Source of the DNA: Candidatus Campbellbacteria bacterium
GTDB taxonomy: Bacteria > Patescibacteriota > Minisyncoccia > Phycocordibacterales > EsbW-18
NCBI GenBank assembly: GCA_016699465.1
Contig: CP064977.1
Span: 478,503 to 542,502, forward strand
Length of the DNA stretch: 64,000 bases
Direction: 5' to 3'
The notes beneath the pieces were generated by a model. It made no database searches. It was not told the DNA's origin and saw only the letters and a program-made list of their open reading frames with translations. Position numbers and translations under genes: made by a program. The stretch's first letter is position 1. The number at the start of each line of letters is the position of its first letter. Shown one piece after another: positions 291-58,761 of the stretch.

Positions 291-608
291 CTACTCTTCC
301 TTCTTCGCATCAAACCGATCAATCTTCAATCCTTTAAACACAAAATACACCACAGCGGCGATGATGCCGAAATCGATGAGCGCCGAAATGAAACTTCCCA
401 ACTTCACGACCCCAATGGACATATCGGCAAGTCCTGCGACATTTCCGAATATCAATCCAATAAGTGGGTTCACTACGTCTGTCACTAGTGATGTAACTAC
501 TTTTCCAACAGCTCCCCCAAGAATAAACCCGATAGCCAAACCAATAACTCCTTGCTCTCGAATGAATGTAATAAATCCAGTCATAGTATGCATAAGCTCA
601 AAATCCAA
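291..608 (-). CDS. mscL: Large-conductance mechanosensitive channel MscL
   Basis: The GFITFIREQGVIGLAIGFILGGAVGKVV...DFGIIAAVVYFVFKGL region has an MscL-like N-terminal helix and TM pattern. The true start is probably the internal Met at MTGF; the MDFEL extension is translated from an intergenic repeat. Confidence 0.85.
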   Translation of the reverse strand: MDFELMHTMTGFITFIREQGVIGLAIGFILGGAVGKVVTSLVTDVVNPLIGLIFGNVAGLADMSIGVVKLGSFISALIDFGIIAAVVYFVFKGLKIDRFDAKKEE

Positions 609-680
609 AGTACAAAATCCAAAAAATTTCTTTCTTTTTTGAGCTTTGTGCTTTGAGCTTCTAATTTAAATTTTTAATAA

Positions 681-1882: not shown

Positions 1883-3664
1883 TTATTCTTTGTGGATGTC
1901 AACAATCCTCAATCGGATGCCGTTCGTGTATCCAAATGTTTCTTTTTCCATAGAAGCAAGAAGTGTAATGGACTGCCCTGCCGACACACGTTCCAAGGTT
2001 TCGTTTCCCTTTGCAAAAAACTTCACAGCAGAAATCATTTTTCCTCCCGAGGTCTTAAAGAGTAATTTGAGATGTTGTTTTTCTTTTCCAAACATTTCAA
2101 TCCTATCAACAAGTATGTTTTCAAATGCAAACACAGGCTTTGGATTACCTGCCCCAAATGGCGCAAGGTGAGAAATACTTTCGTATACTTCTCGTGTCAC
2201 ATCATCGAGAGAAAGCACTGCATCAACGGTCATTTTTTCCTCAGATACTTCCTTAGACGCCAATTTTGTATGTGCATCTGAAAGTGCGGCCTCCAGAAGC
2301 ATAAGATTTTCAACTGTAATAGAAAACCCGCCCGAGTATTTGTGTCCTCCAAATTCAAGAAACAAGTGTCGCACCTCACTCATTAATTCCATCGCACCAA
2401 CACGACCATCAGATCGTACTGAACCTTTAATCACTGACGCATCGCCTCGCCCCCACACAAAGGCACTTTTTCCATACGCTTCCACTACGTGTGTTGCAGC
2501 AAGCCCAAGCAATCCCGGACGCCAGTGTGTATTCCCCACGACAATAACCGGAAGTTCATGCGGTGTTTCTTCAAACTTTTGTTTTATCTCTTTACTCATC
2601 TGCGCCACCGCGCCCTTTCGTTCGTTGTTAATAGAATCCAAGTGGCGCACGAGATTTTCTGCCTCAGTGAGGTTCGTTGTTGAGAGAAGTTGAAAGGCCG
2701 CCTCAGGTTCGTCCATACGCGATGCAGCGTTAATACGCGGGGTAATCATAAATACAACGTCATCCTCAGTCAGTGAATACTGTTTCATTCGGAGGTGCGA
2801 CAACAGTGTGCGAATACCAAGGCGTGGTGATTTTTTTAGCACTAAAAGTCCGTAGTGCGCAAAGACACGATTTTCTCCTGTCAGTGACACCATGTCAGAG
2901 AGCGTTGCAATACCCACCATGTCGAGTAACCATTTCTCCCAACCAATAGGAATGTCTTTTTTTGCCTTCAATAAGAGCGCTTGCGCAATTTTGAAAGCAA
3001 CACCTGCTCCACAAAGGTTTTTGTTTGGATACTCGTCTCCCTCTTGGTTTGGATTTACAATCGCATACGCTTTTGGCACGTCGTGATTTTGCATGTGGTG
3101 ATCGGTAATGATGACATCAATACCCGCATCCATCGCCCGAGCAACGTGCACCACATCTCCCATTCCACAATCAAGTGTGATAACGAGCCCAACCTTCTTG
3201 TCAATGAATGTTGAAATAGCATCTTCATTGAGTCCAAACCCTTCTGTGTTGCGGTGTGGGATGGTGACAGAGAAATTTTCATATCCTATTTTCTTCAAGA
3301 GGTCATGCATCACCACAGCAGACGGAATACCGTCGGCATCAAAATCAGAAAAGAGAGCGATATGTTCGTTACGCTCTACAGCCGACAGAATACGCTCAAT
3401 CGCTTTTTTCATGTCTCGCAACAAAAATGGATCATGCCCATCGTGGTCATATCGCGGTGAAAGAAAAGCATGGGCACCCTCTTTTGTCCTAATACCACGG
3501 TGAAATAGGAGTTTTTGAATAAGCTCGGAATACTCAGCAAGTTGCCCCCGTGTCTCCTTGTCTGGATTTTCAGCAACTATATACTTCTGTACCTGTTGGT
3601 TATTCATGGAATTGTTAGTATACCACCCCACCACTCTAGACTTTGTACCGATATATCGGTACAA
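1883..3664 (-). CDS. recJ: Single-stranded-DNA-specific exonuclease RecJ
   Basis: The DHH/DHHA1 pattern DFDADGIPSAVVMHDLL...ITDHHM is present. The likely real start is the internal Met (MNNQQVQK) near 3607, because the first 19 codons are translated from the upstream palindrome. Confidence 0.9.
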   Translation of the reverse strand: MYRYIGTKSRVVGWYTNNSMNNQQVQKYIVAENPDKETRGQLAEYSELIQKLLFHRGIRTKEGAHAFLSPRYDHDGHDPFLLRDMKKAIERILSAVERNEHIALFSDFDADGIPSAVVMHDLLKKIGYENFSVTIPHRNTEGFGLNEDAISTFIDKKVGLVITLDCGMGDVVHVARAMDAGIDVIITDHHMQNHDVPKAYAIVNPNQEGDEYPNKNLCGAGVAFKIAQALLLKAKKDIPIGWEKWLLDMVGIATLSDMVSLTGENRVFAHYGLLVLKKSPRLGIRTLLSHLRMKQYSLTEDDVVFMITPRINAASRMDEPEAAFQLLSTTNLTEAENLVRHLDSINNERKGAVAQMSKEIKQKFEETPHELPVIVVGNTHWRPGLLGLAATHVVEAYGKSAFVWGRGDASVIKGSVRSDGRVGAMELMSEVRHLFLEFGGHKYSGGFSITVENLMLLEAALSDAHTKLASKEVSEEKMTVDAVLSLDDVTREVYESISHLAPFGAGNPKPVFAFENILVDRIEMFGKEKQHLKLLFKTSGGKMISAVKFFAKGNETLERVSAGQSITLLASMEKETFGYTNGIRLRIVDIHKE

Positions 3665-3666
3665 AG
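3639..3666. promoter_or_regulatory. 28 bp perfect palindrome ACTTTGTACCGATATATCGGTACAAAGT, a candidate operator
   Basis: A perfect inverted repeat sits between the TrpR-like gene stop and the recJ start. Its 20 bp core TGTACCGATATATCGGTACA is repeated exactly at 4081-4100 and 49141-49160. Confidence 0.55.
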
Positions 3667-4074
3667 TTATTTTTCAGTTAACCGGTATATTCTATGCCAT
3701 CGACCCCGACCTTGCGGTGGAAGACCTGCACGTAACATATATTCAATATCTTTCCAAAAATGCAAATTTCTCTTTTCAAGAAAGCAAACAAGTTGAGCGA
3801 TTCTTTTAAATTCCGTTGCTGCAGAAAACCGTTGGGCCGTTGAAATACTCAGACCAAGAATCTCACTCACCCTTCTCACCGGAACACCTTTTGATAACAA
3901 GTGAATTGCGGCAAGACGTTTTGCAAGCATAATTCGTTCGGTTTTTGTAAGCAGTCCGTGCACTAATAAAAGCGCATCCTTTGTTTCATTGGCACGAGAT
4001 ACGTTATGCACCAAATCACGAAAAATCGTTTGAAGAACTTTCTCGGAAATCTTTTTTCTTGAAACGTGCGGCAT
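3667..4074 (-). CDS. TrpR/YerC-family helix-turn-helix regulator
   Basis: The C-terminal part of the 218 aa track ORF starts at MPHVSRKK. It contains LLTKTERIMLAKRLAAIHLLSKGVPVRRVSEILGLSISTAQRFS, which fits the Trp-repressor/YerC HTH pattern. The upstream part of the ORF is low-complexity read-through. Confidence 0.6.
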   Translation of the reverse strand: MPHVSRKKISEKVLQTIFRDLVHNVSRANETKDALLLVHGLLTKTERIMLAKRLAAIHLLSKGVPVRRVSEILGLSISTAQRFSAATEFKRIAQLVCFLEKRNLHFWKDIEYMLRAGLPPQGRGRWHRIYRLTEK

Positions 4075-4080
4075 ACATAA

Positions 4081-4100
4081 TGTACCGATATATCGGTACA
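4081..4100. promoter_or_regulatory. 20 bp perfect palindrome TGTACCGATATATCGGTACA, a candidate autoregulatory operator
   Basis: It begins 7 bp upstream of the ATG of the TrpR/YerC-like gene, in the region divergent from the HIT gene. Confidence 0.55.
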
Positions 4101-4185
4101 GACTAATATAAAGTAGTAAACTAAAGGAAATATAAAGAACGTGGTCTTGTATTGAACCATATAAAAAGACTATACTAATCGGTAT

Positions 4186-4590
4186 ATGACAGACTGTATT
4201 TTTTGCAAAATCGTTTCGGGAGAGATTCCTGCAGAAAAAGTGTATGAGGACGAACACACTCTCGCCTTTTTGGACCTTCACCCGAGCAATCCAGGTCACA
4301 CACTTGTTGTACCAAAAGAACATTCACGCAACGTGTTGGATAGTCACCCAGATACCCTTACACACATGATTCATACTGCACAAAAAATTGCCGTGGTCTT
4401 AAAAAATATTGGAGCTGAAGGAGTCAATATCATTTCAAATAATGAAACCGCTGCAGGCCAGGTAATCTTTCACACACACCTGCATATCATTCCCCGCTAC
4501 ACAGATGACGGACTCGCACTATGGCATGGAAAACCATATCCTGAAGGTGAAATAGAAAAGATGGGAGAAAAAATACGGAATGCTCTCTAG
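4186..4590 (+). CDS. HIT-family (histidine triad) nucleotide hydrolase
   Basis: CIFCKI...FHTHLHIIP carries the HxHxHxx histidine triad. Confidence 0.85.
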   Translation: MTDCIFCKIVSGEIPAEKVYEDEHTLAFLDLHPSNPGHTLVVPKEHSRNVLDSHPDTLTHMIHTAQKIAVVLKNIGAEGVNIISNNETAAGQVIFHTHLHIIPRYTDDGLALWHGKPYPEGEIEKMGEKIRNAL

Positions 4591-4603
4591 GTAGGTACAA
4601 ACA

Positions 4604-4642
4604 AGCCCCGTTCCGCACGAATGCGGAACGGGGCTTTGTATT
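4604..4642. terminator. Bidirectional intrinsic terminator
   Basis: AGCCCCGTTCCGCA-cgaa-TGCGGAACGGGGCT is a 14 bp perfect stem followed by TTTGTATT. It lies between convergent genes. Confidence 0.6.
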
Positions 4643-4683
4643 CAACAGGTCTGGAATCTCGAAGGCAGGTCACCCAGAACCAC

Positions 4684-4968
4684 CTAAGGTTCCTTGGACA
4701 ACTCCCTGTTCGGCGAACCCCCATCGGAAAAAATGGGAGACCTCTCCGGAACCTCGACGCCGCAAATGGTATCGAGAACACTCTCGCCTGTCACCGGCTG
4801 CTCAACCTTCCGAAGCAGTCCCGGCGCATCGGCAAGAAGGACGCCGAGCTCCTCGCGACTCAGGCGGACAGTTCCACCATTGTCGTCCGCGATCACGAAG
4901 AAGCCTTCGTCATACGCGAGTGTCGGACAACAATCCGACGAATGACACAGGGTAATCGCGAATTTCAT
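4684..4968 (-). CDS. Hypothetical small protein, GC-rich, with a strong RBS
   Basis: A 94 aa ORF starting MKFAITL, preceded by AGAAAGGGGGTGGA before the ATG. GC is high and the gene is not conserved-looking. Confidence 0.45.
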   Translation of the reverse strand: MKFAITLCHSSDCCPTLAYDEGFFVIADDNGGTVRLSREELGVLLADAPGLLRKVEQPVTGESVLDTICGVEVPERSPIFSDGGSPNRELSKEP

Positions 4969-5177
4969 TCCACCCCCTTTCTGCACACCGCACTGGTGTG
5001 CGCTGTTGTATACGACTCTTCTGTTGCGGAGAATACCTGAAAAATAAAATCCTGTCAAAGCGAAAGGCCCCGAAGGGCCTTGAAACGGACATCTTCACGG
5101 GGCATAGCATGCTCCTTTCGTCGTACTCCACACCTGCCCTTCTTCCATAAAAGATACTACGCTCTCCTTTTTGTAAG

Positions 5178-6311: not shown

Positions 6312-7073
6312 CTACAGTTCTAACGCGGCAAGCATATCCGCAACATTACGTGCAACAAGACTTGCTCGCCCAACAAGAACACCTTGTACCGTTCCCTCAT
6401 GAACAATACGTGCAATATTATGTGGCTCAACTGAACCGCCATACAAAATGGGAACCGTCATCCCAGTCGCACGACCATACATGCGTGAAAGTATTTTTCG
6501 TATAAACAGTGTTGATTCATGCACATCACTTGGATTCATGGCATACAATGAAGCCTTACCAATTGCCCATACTGGCTCGTACGCAATAATCACTTTTGCT
6601 ATTTTTGCCTTTGAAATACCTTTCAAGGATTCTCGGAGTTGCTCTTCAATAACGGCAAGATGCTCTCCATGTTCTCCGCGCTCATGTTCTCCAACGCACA
6701 CAATAGGCGTCAGTCCCGCAGCAAGTACTTCACGCGTCTTATGAGCAACCTGTGTGGGTGTCTCACCACCCGCGCGTCGTTCTGAATGCCCTACAATGAC
6801 GTATCGCACACCAACACTCTTCAGCATTGCCGTTGAAACTTCTCCTGTGTGTGCCCCATCAGAAAAAACAGAAACATCTTGTGCTCCAAGAAAAACAAAA
6901 CCGTCACTTTTATTCGAGCAACTCACACAAAACGGTGTTGGTGGACAGACAACAACACTTGTCTTTTTTATTTTTCGAGCATATTTTTTTGTTGCACTCC
7001 ATAGTGCAACTGCCTCACGCGCTGACGAAGGATTCATCTTCCAATTTGCTACAAAAAGTAATTTCATAGGCAC
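6312..7073 (-). CDS. tpiA: Triosephosphate isomerase
   Basis: FVANWKMN, the catalytic region VIVGHSERR and the AYEPVWAIG motifs are present. Confidence 0.95.
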   Translation of the reverse strand: MPMKLLFVANWKMNPSSAREAVALWSATKKYARKIKKTSVVVCPPTPFCVSCSNKSDGFVFLGAQDVSVFSDGAHTGEVSTAMLKSVGVRYVIVGHSERRAGGETPTQVAHKTREVLAAGLTPIVCVGEHERGEHGEHLAVIEEQLRESLKGISKAKIAKVIIAYEPVWAIGKASLYAMNPSDVHESTLFIRKILSRMYGRATGMTVPILYGGSVEPHNIARIVHEGTVQGVLVGRASLVARNVADMLAALEL

Positions 7074-14520: not shown

Positions 14521-15375
14521 CTAGCGAATTTCGTACGTAATAGACACATTCGCCGTAATAGTATTTTGTCCGACAGGGATTTGTGGAGAAACTGATGCGC
14601 TATCACTTGAAACAGTTGCTTCCATACCCTTGTACATGACCGGATAGTACCCACCACCATTTTCTGAGAAGCTCACAATGCGTACCAACTTCACGCCGAG
14701 ATCTTTTGCAAGTTGTTGTGCTTTTGTTTTTGCATCATCAATTGCTTTCTGTCGTGCCTCTCGTTGGAGTGCGACTTCGTCATCAATAGTAAACGTTGGC
14801 CCGTACATGTTTGTTGCACCCTTTGCGCCAATACCTGTAACCAATGCGCCTACTTTTTCTGTATCACGAACTTTTACCGTAATGGTCTGACTTACTTCAT
14901 ACCCAACAAGTACTTGATTCTGTGGAGGATAGTACACAGGCATCATTTCAATACCAGCAGAAGAACCCGCCGACATTCCTGAGGCTGCTGCTGGGACCGA
15001 TGTACCAGACGCGCGATATTCGTATTTTGGATTTGCACTGTAGTTTGCCGTTTGAATATCCTTCTCAGCAACCCCCTGTTCTTTGAGGTATGTCATGATT
15101 GCATTAATTTTTTCTGCCGATGCTGTTTGTGCTTCAGTCAATGTTTTTTTCTCAGCAACAACTGAAAAACCAATTTCCGCAATATCGGGAACAGCAAATA
15201 CTTTTCCTTCTCCGCTCACCGCGATAACGTTCGAGGCAGAAACACCGCCACCAATATATCGATTTTCTTTTAATGCATTAATCGCCAAAACAGCGACAAA
15301 AAGTATGAGAACGATGCAGAGCCATCCTACATACTGTATTGTTTTTTGTGTTACGTTTGTTTCCATAGAGTACAA
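14521..15375 (-). CDS. SIMPL-domain (DUF541 / YggE-like) periplasmic protein
   Basis: N-terminal TM segment plus the SIMPL-type repeat architecture (QQLAKDLGVKLVRIVSFSE). Confidence 0.7.
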   Translation of the reverse strand: MYSMETNVTQKTIQYVGWLCIVLILFVAVLAINALKENRYIGGGVSASNVIAVSGEGKVFAVPDIAEIGFSVVAEKKTLTEAQTASAEKINAIMTYLKEQGVAEKDIQTANYSANPKYEYRASGTSVPAAASGMSAGSSAGIEMMPVYYPPQNQVLVGYEVSQTITVKVRDTEKVGALVTGIGAKGATNMYGPTFTIDDEVALQREARQKAIDDAKTKAQQLAKDLGVKLVRIVSFSENGGGYYPVMYKGMEATVSSDSASVSPQIPVGQNTITANVSITYEIR

Positions 15376-20875: not shown

Positions 20876-21397
20876 TTACAAATGAATTCCAAAAAGATTG
20901 AGGAGGATGAGTGCAAATGGGTCTTTTGATGTTCCATAAACAAGTACACCACCTAAAATGCCCGTCACTGAAATCGCAATGAGCCCTACGCCGGAAAGTA
21001 TGAACGCAACGCCACGCCTTTCGAGAAGCGCACCAATACGAAACAAGACTCGCTTGAGCGGATTCCAGCGGATATACCGTTCAATATATCTACGTCCAAC
21101 AGCAATACACTCGCCCAACAGCAACACTCCGTATATCCATGTTGCAGCACCGGCAAAGAGTGAATGCATTTCAACAAGTGCATGATTTGGTCGCATCAGG
21201 TGTTCAGCAGTTTCTCCTGTTCCACTCGCAACAACTGCACCAGCAAACCCAACAAGGAGCAGTGCTCGTTCAATATGTTTCCACGAAATATTTGGCATCC
21301 ACTTTTGAAACGGGAGTAGTGTCATGAGCGAATACAAAATAAGCATCGCTATAGGAAAGTGCACAACAATGGGATGAATGTCGTATGTCATATACAA
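20876..21397 (-). CDS. DUF2231-like membrane protein
   Basis: N-terminal HPIVVHFPIA motif and four TM segments. Confidence 0.45.
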   Translation of the reverse strand: MYMTYDIHPIVVHFPIAMLILYSLMTLLPFQKWMPNISWKHIERALLLVGFAGAVVASGTGETAEHLMRPNHALVEMHSLFAGAATWIYGVLLLGECIAVGRRYIERYIRWNPLKRVLFRIGALLERRGVAFILSGVGLIAISVTGILGGVLVYGTSKDPFALILLNLFGIHL

Positions 21398-21430: not shown

Positions 21431-23347
21431 CTATACAACCTTCCCTCGTCGATGACGCATAAACAACCCCGCAACTCGTGATGCGTTTCCAAGAGGAAGG
21501 AAGTCTGTCAAAAAGTTATACGCCGCTGCGCCGGTCGGAGCAAGTATGCCACCAAACACAAGTACAAGACCGATACAATTTACTATTCCCCATATCACAA
21601 AATTTTGGCGTGAGATTTTATTCACGTATCGCGCAATACGAATAAGTTCAGGAATTTTACTAAAATCATCTTTCATAAGCACCACATCCGCGGCCTCAAT
21701 TGCCGCATCATACCCAATTGCACCCATCGCAATTCCAACATCTGCAAGAGACAACGCCGCGGCGTCATTCACACCATCCCCCACCATAATTGTTTTGTAC
21801 TTTGGAGAAAGATACGCACGAAGTCGATCTAGTTTTTGTTCCGGCAACAGGTTGGCGTGAAATTCATCAACTCCCGTCATACGGGCAATACGACGCGCGA
21901 CGCGTTCATTATCTCCCGTAAGCATAACTACTTTTGTAATACCGAGTGATTTCAATTCAGCAATATCTTCTGCAATGTGTGACTTCAGCGCATCAGCAAG
22001 ACTAAAAATACCTTGCACTGTGCCACCAACGGCAATAACGTTATTACTCATTCCCTCGTCTTCTTCATGTACAATTCGTGCCATTATTTCTGTATCAATA
22101 GGAATCTGTAATTCATGGAAAAATGCCACCTTCCCCATAACAACTTCTACTCCGTTGTGCTGAGCGGTAACACCCTTTCCACTCCACGCCCTAAAGTTTT
22201 CAACTTGAACATGTGGTGCTTTTTTTTCTTCGGCATACGCCACAATTGCTTTTGACACAGGATGGTCTGACAGTGCTGATGTTGCCGCCGCAAGAGATAT
22301 GAGTTCTGTTTCGCGCATATCACCAAACAACGCAACATGCTCAATACGCAAATGTCCTTTTGTAAGCGTTCCCGTCTTATCAACAAGAACAATCTTTACG
22401 TGTTCCATCGCTTCTAAAAAATCGGCACCCTTAACGATAATACCTCGCTTCGCAGCATACCCAACACCTGTGATAAACGTAAGTGGTATCGCGATGGCAA
22501 TGTCATCAGCACACACGACAAGCGTTACCGCAAGAACGAGCGCCACGTCTCTTGAAAACCAATACACAAGTGCAACCCCGACAAACATGAGAATGATGTA
22601 CCACTGTGCAAATCGTTGAGCTGTTGTATTTATTTCTGCTTTATTAAGCTGTGCGTCTTCAACGAGTGCAATAATTTTTTCAAGTGTTGTCTCAGTACCG
22701 ATTCTCTCTGTTCGTATAACCACACCACCTGAAACAACGACGGTTGAGCAAAACGCCTGATCGCCACTCTTTTTTTCTACAGGGAGCGACTCACCGGTAA
22801 GCGACGACTGATCCAGACTACCCTCTCCTTCAACAATCATTCCATCTACGGGCACCATTTGTCCAAGCTCTACCACAACGAGATCTCCTCGCGCCACTTC
22901 GGAGAGTGGCACTTGCACAATATCGCTCCCACGACGCACGTGCGCATGCATTGGGCGCATTTTGAGTAAACTTGTAATGTTTCGTCGCGCTCGCGCATCA
23001 GCATGTGCAGAAATAATACGCGCAGAGGTGAGCATGAGATTGATAAAAAGTGCAGACGCCCACTGTCCACTTAGTAAAGAAAATACGAGCGCAAAACTTG
23101 CCAACAAATCAACAGATGCTTCTTTGTGTAGTAGTGCGTGCACCGCACTCACTACAACGGGAATCGTTGCGAGAATAGAAATAATCACCGAAAACGCAAT
23201 ACCTGCTTCTGATGAAAGGAGTCCTACGTAATACAATACGAGTGAAATAACCAAAACAGTAAGAAACCCGTAATCCATGTAGGGTAGCACGTTCGTCTTC
23301 ATTGCTTTAACCATCGATGATACGCCTATTGTTTTCATTACACACAA
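21431..23347 (-). CDS. P-type cation-transporting ATPase (P1B-like, no N-terminal metal-binding domain)
   Basis: DKTGTLT phosphorylation site, TGDN, and the GDGVNDAAAL hinge. The TM6 motif reads VVCADDIAI instead of the canonical CPC. Confidence 0.8.
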   Translation of the reverse strand: MCVMKTIGVSSMVKAMKTNVLPYMDYGFLTVLVISLVLYYVGLLSSEAGIAFSVIISILATIPVVVSAVHALLHKEASVDLLASFALVFSLLSGQWASALFINLMLTSARIISAHADARARRNITSLLKMRPMHAHVRRGSDIVQVPLSEVARGDLVVVELGQMVPVDGMIVEGEGSLDQSSLTGESLPVEKKSGDQAFCSTVVVSGGVVIRTERIGTETTLEKIIALVEDAQLNKAEINTTAQRFAQWYIILMFVGVALVYWFSRDVALVLAVTLVVCADDIAIAIPLTFITGVGYAAKRGIIVKGADFLEAMEHVKIVLVDKTGTLTKGHLRIEHVALFGDMRETELISLAAATSALSDHPVSKAIVAYAEEKKAPHVQVENFRAWSGKGVTAQHNGVEVVMGKVAFFHELQIPIDTEIMARIVHEEDEGMSNNVIAVGGTVQGIFSLADALKSHIAEDIAELKSLGITKVVMLTGDNERVARRIARMTGVDEFHANLLPEQKLDRLRAYLSPKYKTIMVGDGVNDAAALSLADVGIAMGAIGYDAAIEAADVVLMKDDFSKIPELIRIARYVNKISRQNFVIWGIVNCIGLVLVFGGILAPTGAAAYNFLTDFLPLGNASRVAGLFMRHRRGKVV

Positions 23348-24494: not shown

Positions 24495-25019
24495 TCAAGA
24501 TATTCTTTGTATTAAAGCATTTATATACTCATCTTTGTATTTTCTATACGATGCATAATCATCAACATACTTTACATATAGCTCATTTTTTATAGCCGAA
24601 TATTTATGTACTTCATCAGGGTGGGACCGCAAGTAATCTCTCATGCGAATCATTTCCCTACCGTGTGAGTGTTCCTTAGGGAAAAAATGTATGTTAGCTA
24701 ACAGTGTATTATCTTTTACAACCCGAAAAAGTCGCGAATCATCCATAACAAATTGACCAGCATATTCAAAACCAACGTCCAACATTTCACGCATGTGGTC
24801 TTCAACAGTTTTTAAGCTGTCAACAAGAACGAGTATGTCTATGCAAGATTTGCCCGACATTCCAGGCACCGCGGTACTGCCTATGTGTTCTATTTGTACA
24901 CCCTCTCCGAATATTTTTCTTACCCTACCAGCGTATATCTCAAACTGAGTTGGCCATTTTGGGTCATATGAAACTACATCATATTTTCTATCTTTATACG
25001 GATATTTGTTTTCACTCAT
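24495..25019 (-). CDS. GrpB-family protein (UPF0157)
   Basis: IEHIGSTAVPGMSGKSCIDILV nucleotidyltransferase-like motif. The start was chosen at MSENKYPY. Confidence 0.65.
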   Translation of the reverse strand: MSENKYPYKDRKYDVVSYDPKWPTQFEIYAGRVRKIFGEGVQIEHIGSTAVPGMSGKSCIDILVLVDSLKTVEDHMREMLDVGFEYAGQFVMDDSRLFRVVKDNTLLANIHFFPKEHSHGREMIRMRDYLRSHPDEVHKYSAIKNELYVKYVDDYASYRKYKDEYINALIQRIS

Positions 25020-32278: not shown

Positions 32279-33004
32279 CTACTTTTCCTCTTTTTTGAGA
32301 AGTTTCTCCGCTTGGACAAAATCAGGTGGCAACGGAGCCTCCACAGTTATCTGTTTACCTGAAGGAAGGATGAGTGAGAGCGAACATGCGTGCAGCGCAA
32401 GACGCTCAAAGCCGAGTGCCCTTTCTTGTTTTGGTGCATAGAGACGATCACAGAGCACGGGATGATTAATTGCCTTGAGGTGTACACGAATTTGGTGTGT
32501 ACGTCCTGTTTTTGGACGTAATTCAAGATAGGTATGTTGCGCCCCACGTTCCAGTACGTTGTATTGTGTTATTGCGTCACGCATAACACCGCGCGCACCT
32601 CGTTGTGCAGACCACAAACGTGGATCAGTTCTACTTTTTCCAATCGGACGATTAATGACATCTGTTTCTTTTTTTACAATACCGTACACAAACGCACGGT
32701 AGATTTTTGTTGCCTCTCGTTCTTGAAAAACACACTTAAGATGCACGAATGCATCCTCTGTTTTTGCAATCACAAGTACACCAGATGTATCGGTATCAAG
32801 ACGGTGCACAATACCAGGTCTATCCACCATCATGCCGTTTGAAAGCATTTGTGGTTCACCTACCGTTGCACTTTCTGGATACTGTTCAATCACCCAATCG
32901 GTAAGTGTTTGCCCTTTTGTATACCCATCTTCATGCACCATGACACCACTCGGTTTGTTGACGAATACAACATCGTCGTCTTCGTATAGAATTTTTATGT
33001 TCAT
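32279..33004 (-). CDS. RluA-family pseudouridine synthase
   Basis: HRLDTDTSGVLVIAKT catalytic Asp motif. The start was chosen at MNIKILYEDDD, because the MDFELYTIIV extension is repeat-derived. Confidence 0.85.
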   Translation of the reverse strand: MNIKILYEDDDVVFVNKPSGVMVHEDGYTKGQTLTDWVIEQYPESATVGEPQMLSNGMMVDRPGIVHRLDTDTSGVLVIAKTEDAFVHLKCVFQEREATKIYRAFVYGIVKKETDVINRPIGKSRTDPRLWSAQRGARGVMRDAITQYNVLERGAQHTYLELRPKTGRTHQIRVHLKAINHPVLCDRLYAPKQERALGFERLALHACSLSLILPSGKQITVEAPLPPDFVQAEKLLKKEEK

Positions 33005-33108
33005 AACAATGATAGTGTAAAGCTCAAAGTCCAAAGCTTAAAAAATAAACTGGGTGTTCTGACTTTTTTGGATTTTGTGCTTTAGATTTTGGATTTTTTA
33101 CAGAGTTT

Positions 33109-39722: not shown

Positions 39723-40181
39723 CTAAAAACCAGCAAGTTCTACAATTCGATCAGAGAATGTTTCGTGCACCTCCTCTTCATCAAGGTAGTCCAACAAAAT
39801 ATCACGAACATCGTCTGCCGAGACATCGGCAAGAGGCACAATAATGTGCGGCATAAACATCTTTTGTGATTTAAGAAGAAGTCGATTTGGCAACACGCGT
39901 TCATCTACCCAAAAAGATTCCAAGGTACGATAGGGAAAAAGAGTATCATCAATACGCACTCCCCTTTCTTGAATTTCATACTGAATTATTTTTGGATGAC
40001 GTAGGGCATGAAGACCAAGTGCCACAGCACCAATACCAATCACAAGCCCGAACAAAAAATTTCCTAGAAACGTCGCAAGAATAACTCCAGCGATTGCAAT
40101 AATACCAAGCCCCCAAAACCAATCGGAGCTTCGTGCTTTGTGTTCGTATTCGTACGTCTCCCACGTAAGGTGTGTTTGCAT
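39723..40181 (-). CDS. Membrane protein of unknown function
   Basis: 152 aa with two TM helices near the N-terminus. Confidence 0.5.
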   Translation of the reverse strand: MQTHLTWETYEYEHKARSSDWFWGLGIIAIAGVILATFLGNFLFGLVIGIGAVALGLHALRHPKIIQYEIQERGVRIDDTLFPYRTLESFWVDERVLPNRLLLKSQKMFMPHIIVPLADVSADDVRDILLDYLDEEEVHETFSDRIVELAGF

Positions 40182-40361
40182 AGTAATAGAAGTTGGAAGT
40201 TAGTGGTGAAAGTTAGAGATTAGTTTGGAACTTGGTCAGGGGAAATACAAAAAGTGTACACATATACGATAGCACATTTACTCCTTGCTCAAAGTCCACT
40301 TTGTTAGTATCTTCTTGGTACCAGTGGAGCAAAAGACCCATTATTGCTACACTAGGTTTAC

Positions 40362-46374: not shown

Positions 46375-46639
46375 CCCTATTACTTTGGGATGATGCCACT
46401 ATTGTGAGAGAGGAACTGAAGAATATGCTGAAATAGGCATATTAAAAAATCCGAATATCGAAACCCGAAACAATATCAAATAGCCAAACCAAAACTAATC
46501 ACTAACTCCCAACTTCCAACCTCCAACCCTCCATTATTTATGAATCCCGTTAGAGATTCTTCGATTATGCGTTCCACTTCTTTTTTGGGTAAAAAGAGCT
46601 ACTATACATGTATTATTTCAATAGCAATGAAAACACGTT

Positions 46640-48989: not shown

Positions 48990-49445
48990 TTACCGAAACA
49001 AAATAATTCCCACGGCTACCGATACATTGAGTGATTCCTTTTTTCCTTTCATTGGAATTTCAATCACTTCGTCACATTCTGCAAGAACGTCATGGGATAC
49101 TCCGCCAACCTCATTACCAAACACAAACGCAACAGGCCCTTGTACCGATATATCGGTACAAGGTTTTGAACGCGGGTCTTGCTCAACGGCAATAACCCGC
49201 ACACCGTCTTTTGTAAGTTTTTGTATGACGTCATTTGTTTCCTCGGCATATTCCCACGCTACACAATCTTGCGCACCAAGAGCAACTTTTGCTAGGTCTT
49301 TTCGATTGCGCCCGAAACGGTCAACGGGTGTTGGTGTCACGCCACACAGATACAACTTTGAAACACCCGCAGCGTCACACGTACGAAAAATAGATCCCAC
49401 ATTGTGCACGCTTCGGATGTTATCGAGAATGACGTACGTATTCAT
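48990..49445 (-). CDS. TrmH/SpoU-family tRNA/rRNA 2'-O-methyltransferase
   Basis: SpoU motifs NVGSIFRTCDAAG and VAFVFGNEVGGVS...IPMKG...SLNVSVAVGI. It contains the 20-26 bp perfect palindrome at 49135-49166 in frame (KPCTDISVQG). Confidence 0.8.
   Translation of the reverse strand: MNTYVILDNIRSVHNVGSIFRTCDAAGVSKLYLCGVTPTPVDRFGRNRKDLAKVALGAQDCVAWEYAEETNDVIQKLTKDGVRVIAVEQDPRSKPCTDISVQGPVAFVFGNEVGGVSHDVLAECDEVIEIPMKGKKESLNVSVAVGIILFR
49141..49160. promoter_or_regulatory. Third copy of the palindrome TGTACCGATATATCGGTACA, extended to 26 bp (CCTTGTACC...GGTACAAGG), inside the trmH CDS
   Basis: An exact match to the operator-like sites at 3639-3666 and 4081-4100. Confidence 0.45.
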
Positions 49446-50111: not shown

Positions 50112-50816
50112 TTACAAAGCTAAAATCCATTTCTCCAGAGCAATTTCAAGTGGGGGGCCGTCACGTCGTGCCTCGTGGTAGAGTGTCACAAGTTCGTGTG
50201 TAAGCTTATGCAATTCTTCGTGAGAAAAACGAGTAAGCGCACTTCGTGCCTTGGTAATTGAAAATGATTTCATTCCTTCAGTGTCCCCCATTTCCACAAG
50301 AGCAAGTGTTTTGAATTGCCACCATATAATTCCGTGAATTTCTTCAGAGGCCTTGCCTTCACGAAATGCCTGCTGTAATAGCACCCACGCATTTTTTTTA
50401 TCACGACGCGCACATGCATCTGCTATAGCAAATGCATTAAACTTTTTTTCTTCTTCTTTTGGCACATCAAATACCTGTACTTTTGTTGCGTGCTCCTCAA
50501 GTGCTTTGCGAAGTGGTGTAGAAAGTTTTTCCTCGAGAATAACAAATATGTGCTCAGATTCTGCGAGTGCTTGCGCTAGTTTTACAACAGCGTCGCTAAA
50601 CGCCTCGATGCCGAGAGCAAACTCTACAATGACAATATATTTTTCTTCAAAAAGCCCTTTACTTTCTACAAGCTCCCGGAGGCGATCTGGTGTTGCTCCT
50701 TCATCCACAAGCCGAAACACCTGCGCGTGTGGGCGCTTAAGAGCAAGAGCGCTGAGAATCTCATGCGACCTCTCTCTCACTTTTTTTCTATCTGTTCCGT
50801 GAAGGACGTATAACAT
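50112..50816 (-). CDS. holA: DNA polymerase III delta subunit-like (HolA-like, short form)
   Basis: MLYVLHGTD N-terminus and the clamp-loader delta architecture. This is a weak, length-atypical call. Confidence 0.45.
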   Translation of the reverse strand: MLYVLHGTDRKKVRERSHEILSALALKRPHAQVFRLVDEGATPDRLRELVESKGLFEEKYIVIVEFALGIEAFSDAVVKLAQALAESEHIFVILEEKLSTPLRKALEEHATKVQVFDVPKEEEKKFNAFAIADACARRDKKNAWVLLQQAFREGKASEEIHGIIWWQFKTLALVEMGDTEGMKSFSITKARSALTRFSHEELHKLTHELVTLYHEARRDGPPLEIALEKWILAL

Positions 50817-50887
50817 AAATAATAGGTGTTGGAAGTTAGGAGTGAGAAGTTGGTGATTGGTTTGGAACGTTGGTTATTTTTTGAGCT

Positions 50888-54203: not shown

Positions 54204-55928
54204 ATGGTTATTTTTGACGAAGACAAACAAAATAAAAAATTTCAACAACTACGCGAACAAGAAGAAGAGGAGTTAATGCAGGTGCTTTCGCAAAAATATA
54301 CTCTTCCCTACGTTGACCTCTCGGCAACCCCCATTAACCCAGACGCACTCATTCTTGTTCCTGAAGCATTAGCTCGTGAGGGCATGCTTGCTGCTTTTGG
54401 AATAACTGGAAAAGTTGTCTCTGTTGCTGTACACGCACCAGAAAATACAGCCACAAAGTCCGCTCTTGCCGAGCTGGAAAATCGCGGATACAAAACAACT
54501 CTCTTTCTCACTTCAACAAAAAGTTTGGAATTTATTTGGGATAGATACAAAGACCTCTCCTACAGTGCCGGAAGCAAAAAAGGAATGCTTGATGTGGGTA
54601 GCGAAGACATGACTGAGCTCGTTTCCAAAGTTCGCCACCTTGAAGATATTAAAAAACTCTTTGAAGAGGCGCTTGGCATGCAAAAAACGCACCGCATTTC
54701 TCGTATCATTGAGGTGCTCCTTTCCAGTGCCCTTGCCACCAAAGCATCCGACATTCACATAGAACCCGAAGAAACCAGCGTGCGTATTCGTATGCGTCTG
54801 GACGGTGTGCTTGCTGACGTTGCAAATATTGACGCAGAAACATATCATCTCGTACTCTCTCGTTTCAAATTACTTTCTGCACTTAAACTCAACGTACAAA
54901 GTGAGGCGCAGGACGGACGATTCAGTATCAACTTCAAAGATGTCAGCATTGAAATTCGTACCTCTATTCTCCCAGGACAGTACGGCGAGTCTATTGTGAT
55001 GCGTATTCTCAACCCTGATTCTATTTCTGTGTCCATCGAAAAACTCGGCATGCGCGATGATTTGTTTGCGGTAGTAAATCAAGCGATTGCAAAACCAAAC
55101 GGACTCATTCTCACCACGGGTCCAACCGGTTCAGGAAAAACGACGACACTCTACGCGTTTCTCAAAAAAGTGCACACGCCCGACATTAAAATCATCACCA
55201 TCGAAGATCCAATTGAGTACCACTTGAAAGGTGTCGTACAAACACAAGTGGACAGCAATCACGACTACACATTCCAAAGCGGATTGCGCGCCGCACTTCG
55301 ACAAGACCCTGACATCATCATGGTGGGTGAAATTCGAGACAATGAAACGGCCGAAATTGCGATTCACGCCGCACTCACTGGTCACCTTGTGTTCTCAACA
55401 CTCCACACCAACTCCGCAGCGGGTGCATTCACTCGACTCATCGACGTTGGTATTAATCCCCGCATCCTTGGCTCTGCGCTCTCACTCGCACTTGCACAAC
55501 GACTTGTACGAAAACTATGCGAAACCTGCAAACAAGAAGTACCACTTGAGGGCGATGAGAAAGAAAAAATCGAACGCGTACTTGGTACGGTTGTGGATAC
55601 AACAAAAATTGCAGGACTTCAGCGAGAACGGGTGTGGCACGCAAGCGAAAAAGGATGTGAAGCCTGCAATGGTCTTGGCTACAAGGGACGCATGGGGTTG
55701 TATGAAGGAATTGTGGTGAACTCAGCAATCGAAGAAATTGTTGAATCATCACCGAGCGAGCGCGAGATTAGAAAAGTTGCCGACGCACAGGGATTGCTCA
55801 CTATGACCCAAGACGCAGTGATCAAAGTACTCGAAGGAAAAACAACCACGGACGAAATTATGCGCGTGGTTGATTTGAGCGTTGAAACAACAACCCCAGA
55901 AACTCCAACACCACTTCCTGAAATCTAA
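54204..55928 (+). CDS. Second type IV pilus / type II secretion ATPase paralog (GspE/PilB family)
   Basis: Walker A GPTGSGKTTTLY and GspE Asp/His boxes. The C-terminal zinc-finger-like CETC...CEAC motif is present. Confidence 0.85.
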   Translation: MVIFDEDKQNKKFQQLREQEEEELMQVLSQKYTLPYVDLSATPINPDALILVPEALAREGMLAAFGITGKVVSVAVHAPENTATKSALAELENRGYKTTLFLTSTKSLEFIWDRYKDLSYSAGSKKGMLDVGSEDMTELVSKVRHLEDIKKLFEEALGMQKTHRISRIIEVLLSSALATKASDIHIEPEETSVRIRMRLDGVLADVANIDAETYHLVLSRFKLLSALKLNVQSEAQDGRFSINFKDVSIEIRTSILPGQYGESIVMRILNPDSISVSIEKLGMRDDLFAVVNQAIAKPNGLILTTGPTGSGKTTTLYAFLKKVHTPDIKIITIEDPIEYHLKGVVQTQVDSNHDYTFQSGLRAALRQDPDIIMVGEIRDNETAEIAIHAALTGHLVFSTLHTNSAAGAFTRLIDVGINPRILGSALSLALAQRLVRKLCETCKQEVPLEGDEKEKIERVLGTVVDTTKIAGLQRERVWHASEKGCEACNGLGYKGRMGLYEGIVVNSAIEEIVESSPSEREIRKVADAQGLLTMTQDAVIKVLEGKTTTDEIMRVVDLSVETTTPETPTPLPEI

Positions 55929-58662: not shown

Positions 58663-58761
58663 TGCAAAAACTCAAAATCCAAAATTTAAAGCTCAAAAAA
58701 TTATGAAATTATTACACTTTGAAACATTTTTTGGATTTTGTGCTTTGAACTTTGTGCTTTT

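What the first reader, a model, noticed from the sequence alone, without database searches (positions are those of the whole stretch)
3639..4100. Perfect 20-28 bp palindrome bracketing a TrpR/YerC-like regulator gene, a candidate autoregulatory operator pair
TGTACCGATATATCGGTACA occurs exactly at 4081-4100, 7 bp upstream of the regulator ATG. It occurs again, extended to a 28 bp perfect palindrome, at 3639-3666 between the regulator stop and recJ. A 20 bp perfect palindrome repeated exactly cannot be chance in 64 kb. Dimeric HTH repressors of the TrpR/YerC type bind such sites. Because of this palindrome, the ORF track's recJ N-terminus (YRYIGTK) is an artefact. Together the two sites could repress both the regulator and recJ.
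Basis: partly seen in the sequence, partly recalled or inferred. Interest (0 to 1): 0.65.

Follow-up and report, generated by a model that had tools for sequence, protein, structure and literature searches.

The report
Palindromic operators bracketing TrpR-like regulator
A small TrpR-family DNA-binding protein of an uncultivated Campbellbacteria genome has the same perfect 20-bp palindrome immediately before and after its gene. The same layout recurs in ten related loci with lineage-specific palindromes, so these are most likely the protein's own binding sites and not chance or junk repeats.

Summary
TGTACCGATATATCGGTACA occurs exactly at 4081-4100 and 3644-3663. The 28-bp palindrome is 3640-3667, not 3639-3666.

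The gene between the first two copies (3670-4074, minus strand) encodes a TrpR-fold protein of a 135-aa subfamily seen so far only in Patescibacteria. In 10 loci from 9 lineages, family genes are bracketed 5' and 3' by matching perfect palindromes. Two paralogs in one locus each carry their own palindrome.

The palindromes differ between lineages. They co-vary with the recognition-helix residue equivalent to TrpR Ile79. The window's site fits the TrpR operator plan (TGTAC...GTACA; GNACN-N8-NGTNC).

The most likely reading is a cognate operator pair. The 5' site sits on the regulator's own promoter or start. The 3' site is an auxiliary operator that here also abuts the recJ -35 position.

The 3' site does not exist for recJ: in 5 of 10 loci the next gene is convergent.

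Unexplained:
- The trmH copy is conserved within its clade.
- Flanks are variable but self-complementary.
- One other MAG carries 8 dispersed, REP-like copies.

Verdict: a new variant of a known kind, of moderate interest.

The parts
4081..4100 (.). 5' copy of the 20-bp perfect palindrome TGTACCGATATATCGGTACA, 6 nt upstream of the regulator ATG. Proposed primary, autoregulatory operator.
   Evidence: Exact match. The same position is kept in the 90%-identical ortholog L033. Cognate palindromes lie 2-81 nt before the start codon in all 10 loci.
3640..3667 (.). 3' copy: the 20-mer at 3644-3663 inside a 28-bp perfect palindrome. It abuts the regulator stop codon and lies 33-60 nt upstream of the recJ ATG. 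Proposed auxiliary operator. As RNA it is also a stable hairpin.
   Evidence: An identical 28-mer is present in L033. A 3' cognate palindrome is present in the 10 loci. The sense-strand RNA hairpin has dG -16.7 kcal/mol with no U-tract after it.
3670..4074 (-). 135-aa TrpR-family (YerC/HisR-like) HTH protein. Stop codon at 3667-3669. NCBI protein QQR82161.1.
   Evidence: Pfam PF01371 at 28.3 bits against a cutoff of 27. AF2 model pLDDT 76, with top Foldseek hits to E. coli TrpR, 3kor and 3frw. Profile against PDB gives 3kor at E = 4e-9. Family alignment. Source identity.
4105..4110 (-). TATATT, a -10-like hexamer 4 nt upstream of the 5' palindrome. Candidate promoter of the regulator; this is inference.
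   Evidence: Read from sequence. L033 has TACACT at the same offset. The consensus scan found no full sigma-70 match on this strand.
3617..3622 (-). TATACT, a -10-like box 10-15 nt upstream of the recJ ATG. With a 17-nt spacer the -35 position falls on the last 6 bases of the 28-mer (3640-3645).
   Evidence: Ten of 51 window genes have such a box 11-15 nt before the ATG and no Shine-Dalgarno sequence.
1886..3607 (-). recJ (DHH, DHHA1 and RecJ_OB domains). True start is the ATG at 3607. The TTG-extended N-terminus reaching 3664 is an artefact.
   Evidence: Pfam. Ortholog start in L033.
4186..4587 (+). HIT-family gene, divergent from the regulator. The 5' palindrome lies 86 nt upstream of its ATG.
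   Evidence: Pfam PF01230. The synteny HIT<-, regulator->, recJ-> is kept in L033 and L034.
49138..49163 (.). Third copy: the 20-mer at 49141-49160 inside a 26-bp perfect palindrome, within the trmH/SpoU coding sequence, where it encodes PCTDISVQG. Function unknown.
   Evidence: It is not an insertion. It is conserved exactly in orthologs of 80% and 78% protein identity at the DNA level.
48993..49445 (-). trmH/SpoU-family RNA 2'-O-methyltransferase gene (QQR82221.1) that hosts the third copy.
   Evidence: PDB hits to TrmH. A 100%-identical protein, P0121, is from Ca. Campbellbacteria.

Best explanation
The palindromes are the cognate DNA-binding sites (operators) of the TrpR-family protein encoded between them.

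Shown here:
1. The protein has the TrpR fold and the conserved recognition helix.
2. Genes of this subfamily are flanked 5' and 3' by two copies of one perfect palindrome in 10 loci from 9 lineages.
3. The palindrome differs between lineages and between two paralogs in one genome, but the two copies around each gene match each other.
4. The arm sequence co-varies with the recognition-helix residue equivalent to TrpR Ile79.
5. The window's site has the TrpR operator plan, GTACC-N8-GGTAC with TGTAC...GTACA ends.

Inferred:
- A dimer binds each 20-mer.
- The 5' site, which abuts the start codon of a gene without a Shine-Dalgarno sequence and probably with a short or no leader, overlaps the regulator's own promoter or transcription start and gives negative autoregulation.
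- The 3' site, 436-543 bp away centre to centre, acts as an auxiliary operator, as lac O2 does 401 bp from O1. It would raise local occupancy by looping and/or act as a roadblock or insulator at the gene's end. The extra C-terminal helices (residues about 86-133) and the conserved LPPxGRGRW motif are candidates for oligomerisation or minor-groove contact with the invariant ATATAT centre.
- In this lineage the 3' site also covers the -35 position of recJ and so probably couples recJ to the regulator.
- Further copies (trmH here, 8 in another MAG) would be additional binding sites. Their role is unknown.
For: - Exact triplicate 20-mer, far beyond chance.
- TrpR family and fold.
- Bracketing is conserved. 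The longest word shared between the 120 nt upstream and the 120 nt downstream of the gene is 16-30 nt in 8 of 10 loci, against a maximum of 10-13 in 200 shuffles each.
- The cognate core occurs exactly twice per 6-kb locus, at the two gene ends only.
- Two paralogs in L048 each have their own pair of palindromes.
- Neighbouring genes differ, so the palindromes travel with the regulator.
- Protein-DNA covariation (HTH motifs, DNA):
  - S-I-S-T with TACCG arms: window and L013, only 36% identical overall.
  - S-P-S-T with [C/A]TACG: L046 and L048a.
  - S-Y-S-T with TATCA: L040 and L043.
  - S-D-S-T with GGGCG: L034.
  - S-S-S-T with CCTCG: L049.
- Literature (PMC9413887): TrpR-family operators are 20-bp palindromes; the TrpR motif is TGTAcTnGTnnACnAgTACA; the half-site is GNACT with an 8-bp spacer; Ile79, Ala80, Thr81 and Arg84 contact DNA; autoregulation is common.
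- lac O2 lies 401 bp from O1 (PMC1762422).
- The site positions are evolutionarily stable. All three are kept in the relative represented by L033 and L038, and the trmH site is kept in L039. There the 20-mer is the longest three-way identical run in a gene with 65% three-way identity.
Against: - No binding data exist.
- No convincing sigma-70 promoter was found on the regulator strand.
- TrpR-family proteins are not known to loop DNA or to have operators 3' of their genes.
- The sites are 20/20 identical with no degenerate variants, which is atypical of a regulon.
- Flanks beyond the core are variable but mutually complementary. Seven of 12 independent copies have 2 or more extra pairs (P = 2e-6). 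A dimeric HTH does not require this; it points to hairpin or cruciform function, or to template-switch mutation.
- One copy lies in a coding region with no promoter nearby.
- In the LejiaA_42_15 MAG the 8 copies lie roughly 130-490 nt from the nearest starts or between convergent genes. They are mixed with two other repeated palindrome families, and no family gene lies within about 58 kb of sampled loci.
Confidence: 0.6

Rival explanations
1. REP/REPIN-like system. The palindromes are a family of dispersing (or formerly dispersing) hairpin repeats. The single-copy TrpR-like gene they flank is their cognate partner, analogous to a RAYT flanked by its own REPs. The protein would bind hairpin or cruciform DNA and promote or police their spread, or would have been domesticated together with them.
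For: - The architecture parallels RAYTs: a short single-copy gene flanked by its specific palindromes, each paralog with its own family, and co-evolution (PMC3337134).
- Eight dispersed intergenic copies in LejiaA_42_15 sit in mosaics with two other repeated perfect palindromes.
- All copies are exact, with no degenerate ones.
- Palindromic flanks are variable.
- One intragenic copy replaced an equal length of a variable loop.
Against: - The protein is an all-helical TrpR fold with no HUH/Y1 or other catalytic domain.
- Copy number is low: 3 in 64 kb, two of them at the gene itself.
- Positions are stable across about 25% DNA divergence, with no gain or loss seen among the window, L033/L038 and L039.
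- No GTAG or CGTC tag.
- In the other lineages' 6-kb loci the only copies are the two at the gene.
Confidence: 0.15
2. RNA-level elements without a protein partner. The palindromes would be a 5'-UTR hairpin and a 3' terminator or stabiliser hairpin of the regulator mRNA. Their identity would be maintained by gene conversion between the two copies.
For: - The hairpins are stable: -16.7 kcal/mol for the 3' copy (z = -4.8) and -21.4 for the trmH copy.
- The stem extensions are variable but complementary, as expected for selection on pairing.
- The one mismatch in L043's 3' palindrome is T.G on the sense strand, which would be a wobble pair in RNA.
- The 3' position just after the stop codon is where terminators lie.
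Against: - No U-tract follows the hairpin on the sense strand. The only terminator-like call is on the antisense strand.
- The 5' copy's hairpin is not exceptional against shuffles (z = -1.7).
- This reading does not explain why the 5' and 3' copies share one sequence.
- It does not explain why that sequence tracks the recognition-helix residue.
- It does not explain why the site matches the TrpR operator plan.
- The palindromes are perfect with no asymmetric loop, unlike the genome's other terminator-like hairpins, which have 4-nt loops.
- No Rfam family matched.
Confidence: 0.1
3. Recombination sites. The two identical palindromes (10-bp arms around an 8-bp spacer) would be core sites for a site-specific recombinase that can excise or invert the regulator cassette.
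For: - The arm-spacer-arm geometry of the 28-mer resembles tyrosine-recombinase core sites.
- The same site flanks a discrete 0.4-kb gene in all loci.
- A serine recombinase gene lies next to one Lejia copy.
Against: - No recombinase gene lies in the regulator loci.
- The spacer is symmetric, so the site would have no polarity.
- The synteny HIT-regulator-recJ is stable from 100% down to 53% regulator identity.
- Covariation with the HTH residue points to the TrpR-like protein as the binder.
Confidence: 0.03

Closest known systems
E. coli TrpR and its trp, aroH and trpR operators
   Same: - Same fold: the top Foldseek hits include 1tro and 6fal.
- The operator is a 20-bp palindrome with identical outer arms TGTAC...GTACA and GNACN half-sites 8 bp apart.
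- The regulator's own gene carries an operator (PMC9413887).
   Different: - The protein is 135 aa, not about 108. It has an invariant MPHVS N-terminus and about 45 extra C-terminal residues ending in LPPxGRGRW.
- It scores far below the TrpR equivalog cutoff: 26 bits against 67.
- The inner operator bases are CGATATATCG, not CTAGTTAACTAG.
- A second operator lies 3' of the gene.
- The host is a Patescibacteria genome. No trp or his biosynthesis gene lies next to any site sampled here, so the effector and the regulon are unknown.
HisR (B. subtilis YerC) histidine repressors
   Same: - This is the closest solved relatives by sequence profile: 3kor, 3frw, 3g1c.
- Operators are 20-bp palindromes with lineage-specific consensus sequences that track protein phylogeny. 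Autoregulatory sites often lie upstream of hisR.
   Different: - The HisR consensus cacTTTAnnnnnnTAAAgtg is unrelated.
- The YerC/YecD NCBIfam model is not reached: no hit for the window protein, and 25.7 bits against 42.2 for P0051.
- No his genes lie near any site.
- Bracketing by a 3' operator has not been described for HisR.
lac O1/O2 (and gal OE/OI) auxiliary-operator looping
   Same: A primary operator at the promoter is paired with an identical-type auxiliary operator about 400 bp downstream. Here the spacing is 437 bp; for lac it is 401 bp (PMC1762422).
   Different: - Looping needs a protein that bridges two sites. Oligomerisation of this protein is untested.
- Here the auxiliary site lies beyond the regulator's own stop codon, not inside a regulated structural gene.
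REP/REPIN elements with their RAYT transposase
   Same: A short single-copy gene is flanked by its own specific palindromic repeats. Each paralog has its own repeat family. Further copies are dispersed in the genome. The system is vertically inherited and co-evolving (PMC3337134).
   Different: - There is no HUH/tyrosine transposase domain.
- The palindromes are perfect, without the GTAG tag.
- Copy number is very low and positions are stable.
- One copy is intragenic.
ParB/parS- or KorB/OB-type sparse, highly conserved palindromic sites
   Same: From general knowledge: an HTH protein with a few near-identical palindromic sites per replicon, some inside genes and some at its own gene.
   Different: - The fold is unrelated.
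- No partition ATPase lies nearby.
- Clustering near an origin was not examined.
- This is only a functional analogy offered for the trmH copy.

Membership tests
TrpR family (Pfam PF01371, TrpR-like fold) | Sequence match to the family model at or above the curated cutoff | tested here: met
   PF01371 at 28.3 bits against a cutoff of 27, E = 1.9e-6, so only just over. Most homologs carry precomputed PF01371.
TrpR family (Pfam PF01371, TrpR-like fold) | All-helical TrpR fold with an HTH (helices D and E) | tested here: met
   AF2 model with pLDDT 76 and 8 helices. Foldseek ranks 1-33 are all TrpR or TrpR-like chains, with probability up to 1.0 and TM (target) 0.6-0.69. E-values are only about 0.1.
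TrpR family (Pfam PF01371, TrpR-like fold) | Conserved DNA-contact positions of the recognition helix (TrpR Ala80, Thr81, Arg84) | tested here: met
   S76 is nearly invariant (at least 90% of sequences) and T79 is invariant. R82 is present in most members: S-x-S-T-x-x-R in alignments A2 and A3. The mapping to the HisR 'STATISRV' helix comes from the profile alignment. The contact residue list is from PMC9413887.
TrpR proper (NCBIfam TIGR01321 equivalog) | Score at or above the equivalog cutoff | tested here: not met
   26.1 bits against a cutoff of 67.25. It is therefore not an ortholog of the tryptophan repressor.
YerC/YecD = HisR (NCBIfam TIGR02531) | Score at or above the cutoff; protein length about 100 aa | tested here: not met
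   No hit for the window protein. P0051 scores 25.7 bits against 42.2. Family members are 130-145 aa with a C-terminal extension.
TrpR-family operator | 20-bp palindrome; half-sites GNACT separated by 8 bp | tested here: met
   TGTACCGATATATCGGTACA reads as GTACC-N8-GGTAC, with 4 of 5 half-site positions matching and outer arms identical to the TrpR motif TGTAcTnGTnnACnAgTACA.
TrpR-family operator | Site located in the regulator's own promoter region and conserved in orthologs | tested here: met
   The cognate palindrome lies 2-81 nt upstream of the start codon in 10 of 10 loci. The promoter itself is not mapped.
TrpR-family operator | Specific binding by the protein, dependent on a co-repressor | not testable with these tools
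   The only indirect evidence is the covariation of residue 77 with the arm bases.
REP/RAYT (REPIN) system | The flanked gene encodes an IS200/IS605-like HUH-Y1 transposase | tested here: not met
   The Pfam hits are Trp_repressor and generic HTH domains (HTH_23; HTH_Tnp_ISL3 below its cutoff), with no catalytic domain. The fold is TrpR.
REP/RAYT (REPIN) system | Tens to hundreds of extragenic copies, usually as inverted doublets | tested here: inconclusive
   Three copies in the 64-kb window, one of them intragenic. Eight single copies in the LejiaA_42_15 MAG. The complete 811-kb source genome could not be scanned.
Intrinsic (Rho-independent) terminator | G+C-rich hairpin followed by a U-tract on the transcribed strand | tested here: not met
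   The hairpin is present, but the sense strand continues CUAGAGUGG. The T-run lies on the opposite strand.
Loop-forming repressor with auxiliary operator (lac-type) | Two or more operators on one DNA, plus a protein that bridges them | tested here: inconclusive
   Two identical operators lie 436-543 bp apart in all loci. Bridging or oligomerisation could not be tested.

The most novel reading that the evidence does not exclude
Patescibacteria would carry a previously undescribed 'self-bracketed' module. In it, a TrpR-fold protein and a family of perfect palindromes co-evolve as a unit. The palindromes flank the protein's gene and are seeded at a few other places in the chromosome, including inside conserved genes. 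The protein would recognise them as extruded hairpin or cruciform DNA, or would keep them perfectly symmetric. On this reading they act as protein-bound punctuation (insulators, roadblock terminators or chromosome landmarks) and not as classical promoter operators. It would be a non-transposase analogue of the REPIN-RAYT partnership.
Probability: 0.18. Interest if true: 0.8.

Novelty: new variant of a known kind. Interest (0 to 1): 0.55.

Why it matters
Transcription factors of the Candidate Phyla Radiation are essentially uncharacterised, because the organisms are uncultivated.

This work gives a defined protein subfamily: about 220 clusters at 50% identity with E <= 1e-30. The predicted binding sites can be read directly from each genome. 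A one-residue-to-arm specificity correlation is already visible, and all of this can be tested in vitro without culturing the organism.

The double bracketing of the regulator gene has not, to my knowledge, been described for TrpR, YerC or HisR proteins. If it reflects looping or insulation, it would extend what this minimal fold can do.

The possible link to recJ, and to repair genes near other sites (ruvA in L039; UDG, MGMT and a PD-(D/E)XK nuclease in L048), hints at a regulon unrelated to amino-acid biosynthesis.

On the practical side, the palindromes create recurrent ORF-calling artefacts. Examples are the extended recJ N-terminus, the 218-aa regulator ORF, and the annotated 153-aa P0002.

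Tried and rejected
1. **Chance.** Rejected.

2. **Insertion of a mobile palindrome into trmH.** Rejected as a simple insertion. The region aligns without gaps to TrmH structures and to 13 more distant orthologs. Those have DYKKLSTKK-type sequence of the same length where the clade has PCTDISVQG.

3. **A longer MITE around the 20-mer.** All-against-all BLAST of +/-400 nt around every copy found nothing shared beyond 20-28 nt. The exceptions are true orthology and separate repeat families in the Lejia MAG.

4. **Known RNA family.** None found in 3000-5000.

5. **Canonical sigma-70 promoter for the regulator.** None was found by the consensus scan. Only -10-like hexamers were read by eye.

6. **Finding the source genome in genome contigs or metagenome contigs.** It is not there. 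Neither scan returned a locus with two copies 437 bp apart.
   - Most other 18-mer hits look like chance palindromes. One is phage-ori iterons (L022).
   - Three hits are identical palindromes at Megasphaera hutchinsoni scaffold ends (L001, L014, L017) and remain unexplained.

7. **Extending the window.** Look-ups of edge proteins failed, as did the look-up of P0122. The complete 811-kb genome therefore could not be scanned.

8. **Reading upstream palindromes from over-extended N-termini of database proteins.** Uninformative apart from P0002 and P0382.

9. **A family member near the 8 Lejia copies.** None was found by profile search of six-frame translations.

10. **Covariation at the flanking pair in trmH.** The pair is T-A in the window and L038 and C-G in L039, both at synonymous sites. 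This is a single event and is not significant on its own.


Full report
**Observation**

The 20-mer TGTACCGATATATCGGTACA occurs three times in the window, not two: at 3644-3663, 4081-4100 and 49141-49160. All three copies are exact. No variants with 1-3 mismatches exist, and 0 matches are expected in shuffles.

The copy at 3644 is the centre of a 28-bp perfect palindrome at 3640-3667. The copy at 49141 is the centre of a 26-bp palindrome at 49138-49163.

The core CGATATATCG is found nowhere else in the 64 kb. Three of the window's four perfect palindromes of 16 bp or more are these copies.

The gene between the first two copies runs on the minus strand from the ATG at 4074 to the TAA at 3669-3667. 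The 5' palindrome ends 6 nt before the ATG. The 3' palindrome shares its last base with the stop codon. recJ starts at the ATG at 3607, and its 'MYRYIGTK' extension is an artefact of an in-frame TTG inside the palindrome.

**Source**

The regulator and trmH proteins are 100% identical to QQR82161.1 and QQR82221.1 of a Candidatus Campbellbacteria genome with an 811,376-bp contig. That genome is not in the two scannable contig collections.

**The protein**

- Pfam gives Trp_repressor just over its cutoff, at 28.3 bits against 27.
- The TrpR equivalog and YerC/YecD NCBIfam models are not reached.
- An AlphaFold2 model built on 53 homologs (pLDDT 76) is all-helical. Its best 33 PDB matches are E. 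coli TrpR and TrpR-like or YerC-like structures.
- A family profile best matches 3kor, 3frw and 3g1c, the YerC/HisR branch.
- The family has an invariant MPHVS N-terminus, LTKTERIMLAKRLA, a recognition helix S-x-S-T-x-x-R, and a roughly 45-residue C-terminal extension ending in LPPxGRGRW.
- It is a sizeable group of 130-145-aa proteins: 222 clusters at 50% identity with E <= 1e-30. Where sources name the organism, it is Paceibacterota or Patescibacteria.

**Comparative anatomy, the main result**

I recovered DNA for 10 family genes in 9 lineages. In every one the gene is bracketed by palindromes of the same kind.

| Locus | Regulator identity to window | 5' palindrome | 3' palindrome |
|---|---|---|---|
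| Window | 100% | 20-mer | 28-mer |
| L033 | 90% | same 20-mer | same 28-mer |
| L034 | 53% | TTTGGGCGATATATCGCCCAAA plus TAGGCGATATATCGCCTA | ACCCCGATATATCGCCCAAAATTGGGCGATATATCGGGGT |
| L013 (Zambryskibacteria) | 36% | TATACCGATATATCGGTATA | TGTACCGATATATCGGTACA |
| L046 (Niyogibacteria CP066691) | 37% | TTTCAACTACGATATATCGTAGTTGAAA | AACTACGATATATCGTAGTT |
| L048a | 36% | TAAACTATACGATATATCGTATAGTTTA | same |
| L048b (divergent paralog 1.5 kb away) | paralog | TTTATCTTATAAGATAAA, its own sequence | same |
| L049 | 34% | TATTTACCTCGATTAATCGAGGTAAAT | same |
| L040 | 40% | weaker TATCATATAT-type element | same type |
| L043 | 42% | weaker TATCATATAT-type element | same type |

- The longest word shared between the 120 nt upstream and downstream is 16-30 nt in 8 of 10 loci. 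The maximum in 200 shuffles per locus is 10-13.
- Centre-to-centre spacing is 436-543 bp.
- Within each roughly 6-kb locus the cognate core occurs only at these two places.
- The neighbours differ: HIT and recJ; gapdh and rpiB; tgt; SMC-like; UDG; TraG. In 5 of 10 loci the downstream gene is convergent. Both palindromes therefore belong to the regulator gene, not to recJ.

**Evidence that the protein reads the palindrome**

1. TrpR-family operators are 20-bp palindromes. The TrpR motif is TGTAcTnGTnnACnAgTACA, with GNACT half-sites 8 bp apart (PMC9413887). The window's site is TGTAC-CGATATATCG-GTACA, that is GTACC-N8-GGTAC.
2. The residue between the two serines of the recognition helix is position 77, equivalent to DNA-contacting Ile79 of TrpR. 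It sorts perfectly with the bases flanking the centre:
   - Ile with TACCG: window, L033 and the only 36%-identical L013.
   - Pro with [C/A]TACG: L046 and L048a.
   - Tyr with TATCA: L040 and L043.
   - Asp with GGGCG: L034.
   - Ser with CCTCG: L049.

   This covers five classes in nine genes. It is suggestive but not yet phylogenetically controlled.
3. The ATATAT, TTAA or TATA centre is the most conserved part of the DNA, and the GRGRW tail is among the most conserved parts of the protein. A minor-groove contact between them is my inference only.

**Likely mechanism**

Few genes in this window have a Shine-Dalgarno sequence. Ten of 51 have a TAYAMT box 11-15 nt before the ATG, which suggests short-leader or leaderless mRNAs.

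The 5' palindrome abuts the start codon. A -10-like TATATT (TACACT in L033) lies 4 nt upstream of it. In L013, L040, L043 and L048a a good -10 (TATAAT, TATACT or TATAGT) overlaps the 3' edge of the palindrome. A bound dimer would therefore occlude the promoter or start site, giving negative autoregulation, which is common in this family.

The 3' site is best explained as an auxiliary operator that raises occupancy by looping, as lac O2 does 401 bp from O1 (PMC1762422), and/or as a roadblock or insulator. This step is inferred, and oligomerisation is untested.

For recJ, the TATACT box at 3617-3622 puts the -35 position on the last six bases of the 28-mer. The same geometry holds in L033 and L034. 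Co-regulation of recJ is therefore plausible in this clade. It is a local add-on and not the reason the 3' site exists.

**What this explanation does not cover**

(a) *The trmH copy.* It is not an insertion. The segment aligns without gaps to TrmH structures and to distant orthologs.
- Orthologs of 93, 80 and 78% identity all encode CTDISVQ. Those at 73% or less have DYKKLSTKK-like sequence of the same length.
- At the DNA level the 20-mer is the longest three-way identical run (20 nt) in a gene with 65% three-way identity. Its boundaries coincide exactly with the palindrome.
- The site is therefore under selection as DNA, yet there is no promoter context.

(b) *Self-complementary flanks.* Beyond the conserved core the flanks are different in sequence but complementary to each other. 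Seven of 12 independent copies have 2 or more extra pairs, up to a 40-bp perfect palindrome (P = 2e-6). A dimeric HTH does not need this. It suggests hairpin or cruciform function, RNA hairpins (dG -16.7 to -21.4 kcal/mol), or template-switch 'palindrome perfecting' during replication (general knowledge, untested).

(c) *The LejiaA_42_15 Paceibacterota MAG.* It has 8 copies (GTGTACC...GGTACAC).
- All are intergenic. By a rough ORF call they lie about 130-490 nt from the nearest starts or between convergent genes.
- They are interleaved with two other repeated perfect palindromes.
- No family gene lies in the roughly 58 kb sampled.
- This is REP/BIME-like and keeps a REPIN-RAYT-type reading alive (PMC3337134). 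Against it, the protein has no catalytic domain, and site positions in Campbellbacteria are stable.

**Other rivals**

- *Intrinsic terminator.* Not supported on the sense strand: no U-tract follows the hairpin.
- *Known RNA family.* None matches.
- *Recombination-site reading.* There is no recombinase in the regulator loci, and synteny is stable.

**Verdict**

The recJ co-repression idea is a lineage-specific possibility.

The module is a new variant of a known kind. It is a TrpR/HisR-type repressor-operator pair with a conserved double-bracket layout, perfectly symmetric extended sites, and a few dispersed copies, one of them conserved inside a gene.

Interest is moderate (0.55). It is a directly testable entry point into CPR gene regulation, with a minority chance (about 0.18) that it is a non-transposase analogue of REPIN-RAYT systems.

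Noticed in passing
L002 5689-5722 and 5943-5970; L007 3477-3506; L011 1525-1560; L012 4437-4464; L016 2881-2922: The LejiaA_42_15 Paceibacterota MAG carries two further families of repeated perfect palindromes: a core TTCAACACGCCACCCGGGTGGCGTGTTGAA, and TAAATGCGCACGCCGGCGTGCGCATTTA. Each has variable palindromic extensions. They sit within tens of bases of the 22-mer copies, giving BIME-like mosaics of hairpin repeats in a CPR genome.
   Followed up: partly
L039 13261-13300: A 40-bp perfect palindrome, ATCAAGGTTAAACCTCGATATATCGAGGTTTAACCTTGAT, has the same CGATATATCG centre but different arms. It lies between ruvA and a Mur ligase gene in a related Campbellbacteria genome (GCA_024653945.1). 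It may be the site of another paralog. Similar GGTTTAACC units occur near Lejia copies (L011, L016).
   Followed up: no
L048 3001-6417: Two TrpR-like genes, each self-bracketed, sit among DNA-repair genes: UDG, a methylated-DNA methyltransferase DNA-binding domain protein, a PD-(D/E)XK nuclease, and an ATP-cone/Mrr-like protein. Together with recJ here and ruvA in L039, this hints at a link to DNA repair.
   Followed up: no
window: for example 3617-3622, and upstream of the genes at 6312-7067, 14521-15366, 20876-21391, 21431-23338, 24495-25019, 32279-33004, 50888-53293, 54204-55928 and 60149-61381: Ten of 51 long ORFs have a TAYAMT -10-like box starting 11-15 nt before the ATG, and almost none has a Shine-Dalgarno motif. 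This suggests widespread leaderless or very short-leader mRNAs in this genome.
   Followed up: partly
window 594-660, 33020-33035, 50887-50909, 58737-58759: A repeated TTTGTGCTTTGAGCTT-like motif, often as overlapping 7-nt-offset tandems, gives 10 matches with up to 3 mismatches against about 1 expected. Most of the matches lie just upstream of gene starts. It may be another regulatory or UP-like element.
   Followed up: partly
window 40192-40203, 46502-46520, 50828-50839: CTAACTTCCAAC occurs 4 times with up to 1 mismatch (0.28 expected), about 10-25 nt upstream of the start codons of the genes at 39723-40181 and 50112-50816. It is an unexplained upstream motif.
   Followed up: partly
L034 1410-1466 (protein P0002): The database protein P0002 (153 aa) has an 18-residue N-terminal extension (…IYRPKIGDISPNAT) that is a read-through of the two upstream palindromes. 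The conserved start is MPHVS. The same artefact produces the 218-aa ORF at 3667-4323 and the TTG-extended recJ in the window.
   Followed up: yes
L022 3060-3230: An unrelated phage-like metagenome contig (with SSB and a replication-protein gene) carries the 18-mer plus at least five direct repeats of CTATCGGTACATTT inside the putative replication-initiator ORF, where they give KCTDS peptide repeats. These look like origin iterons, so the same half-site serves a different system.
   Followed up: partly
L001 1-23, L014 1-23, L017 1577-1601: In Megasphaera hutchinsoni KA00182, three scaffolds end in AAAGAGTACCGATATATCGGTACTCTTTTTTT. This is a repeated terminator-like palindrome with the same 18-bp centre that apparently breaks the assembly.
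   Followed up: no
window 49138-49163 compared with L038 4634-4657 and L039 10290-10311: The base pair flanking the intragenic 20-mer is T-A in two genomes and C-G in the third. Both changes are synonymous (Leu CTT/CTC, Gln CAA/CAG), so palindromy is kept by a double change. This is a single event only.
   Followed up: partly
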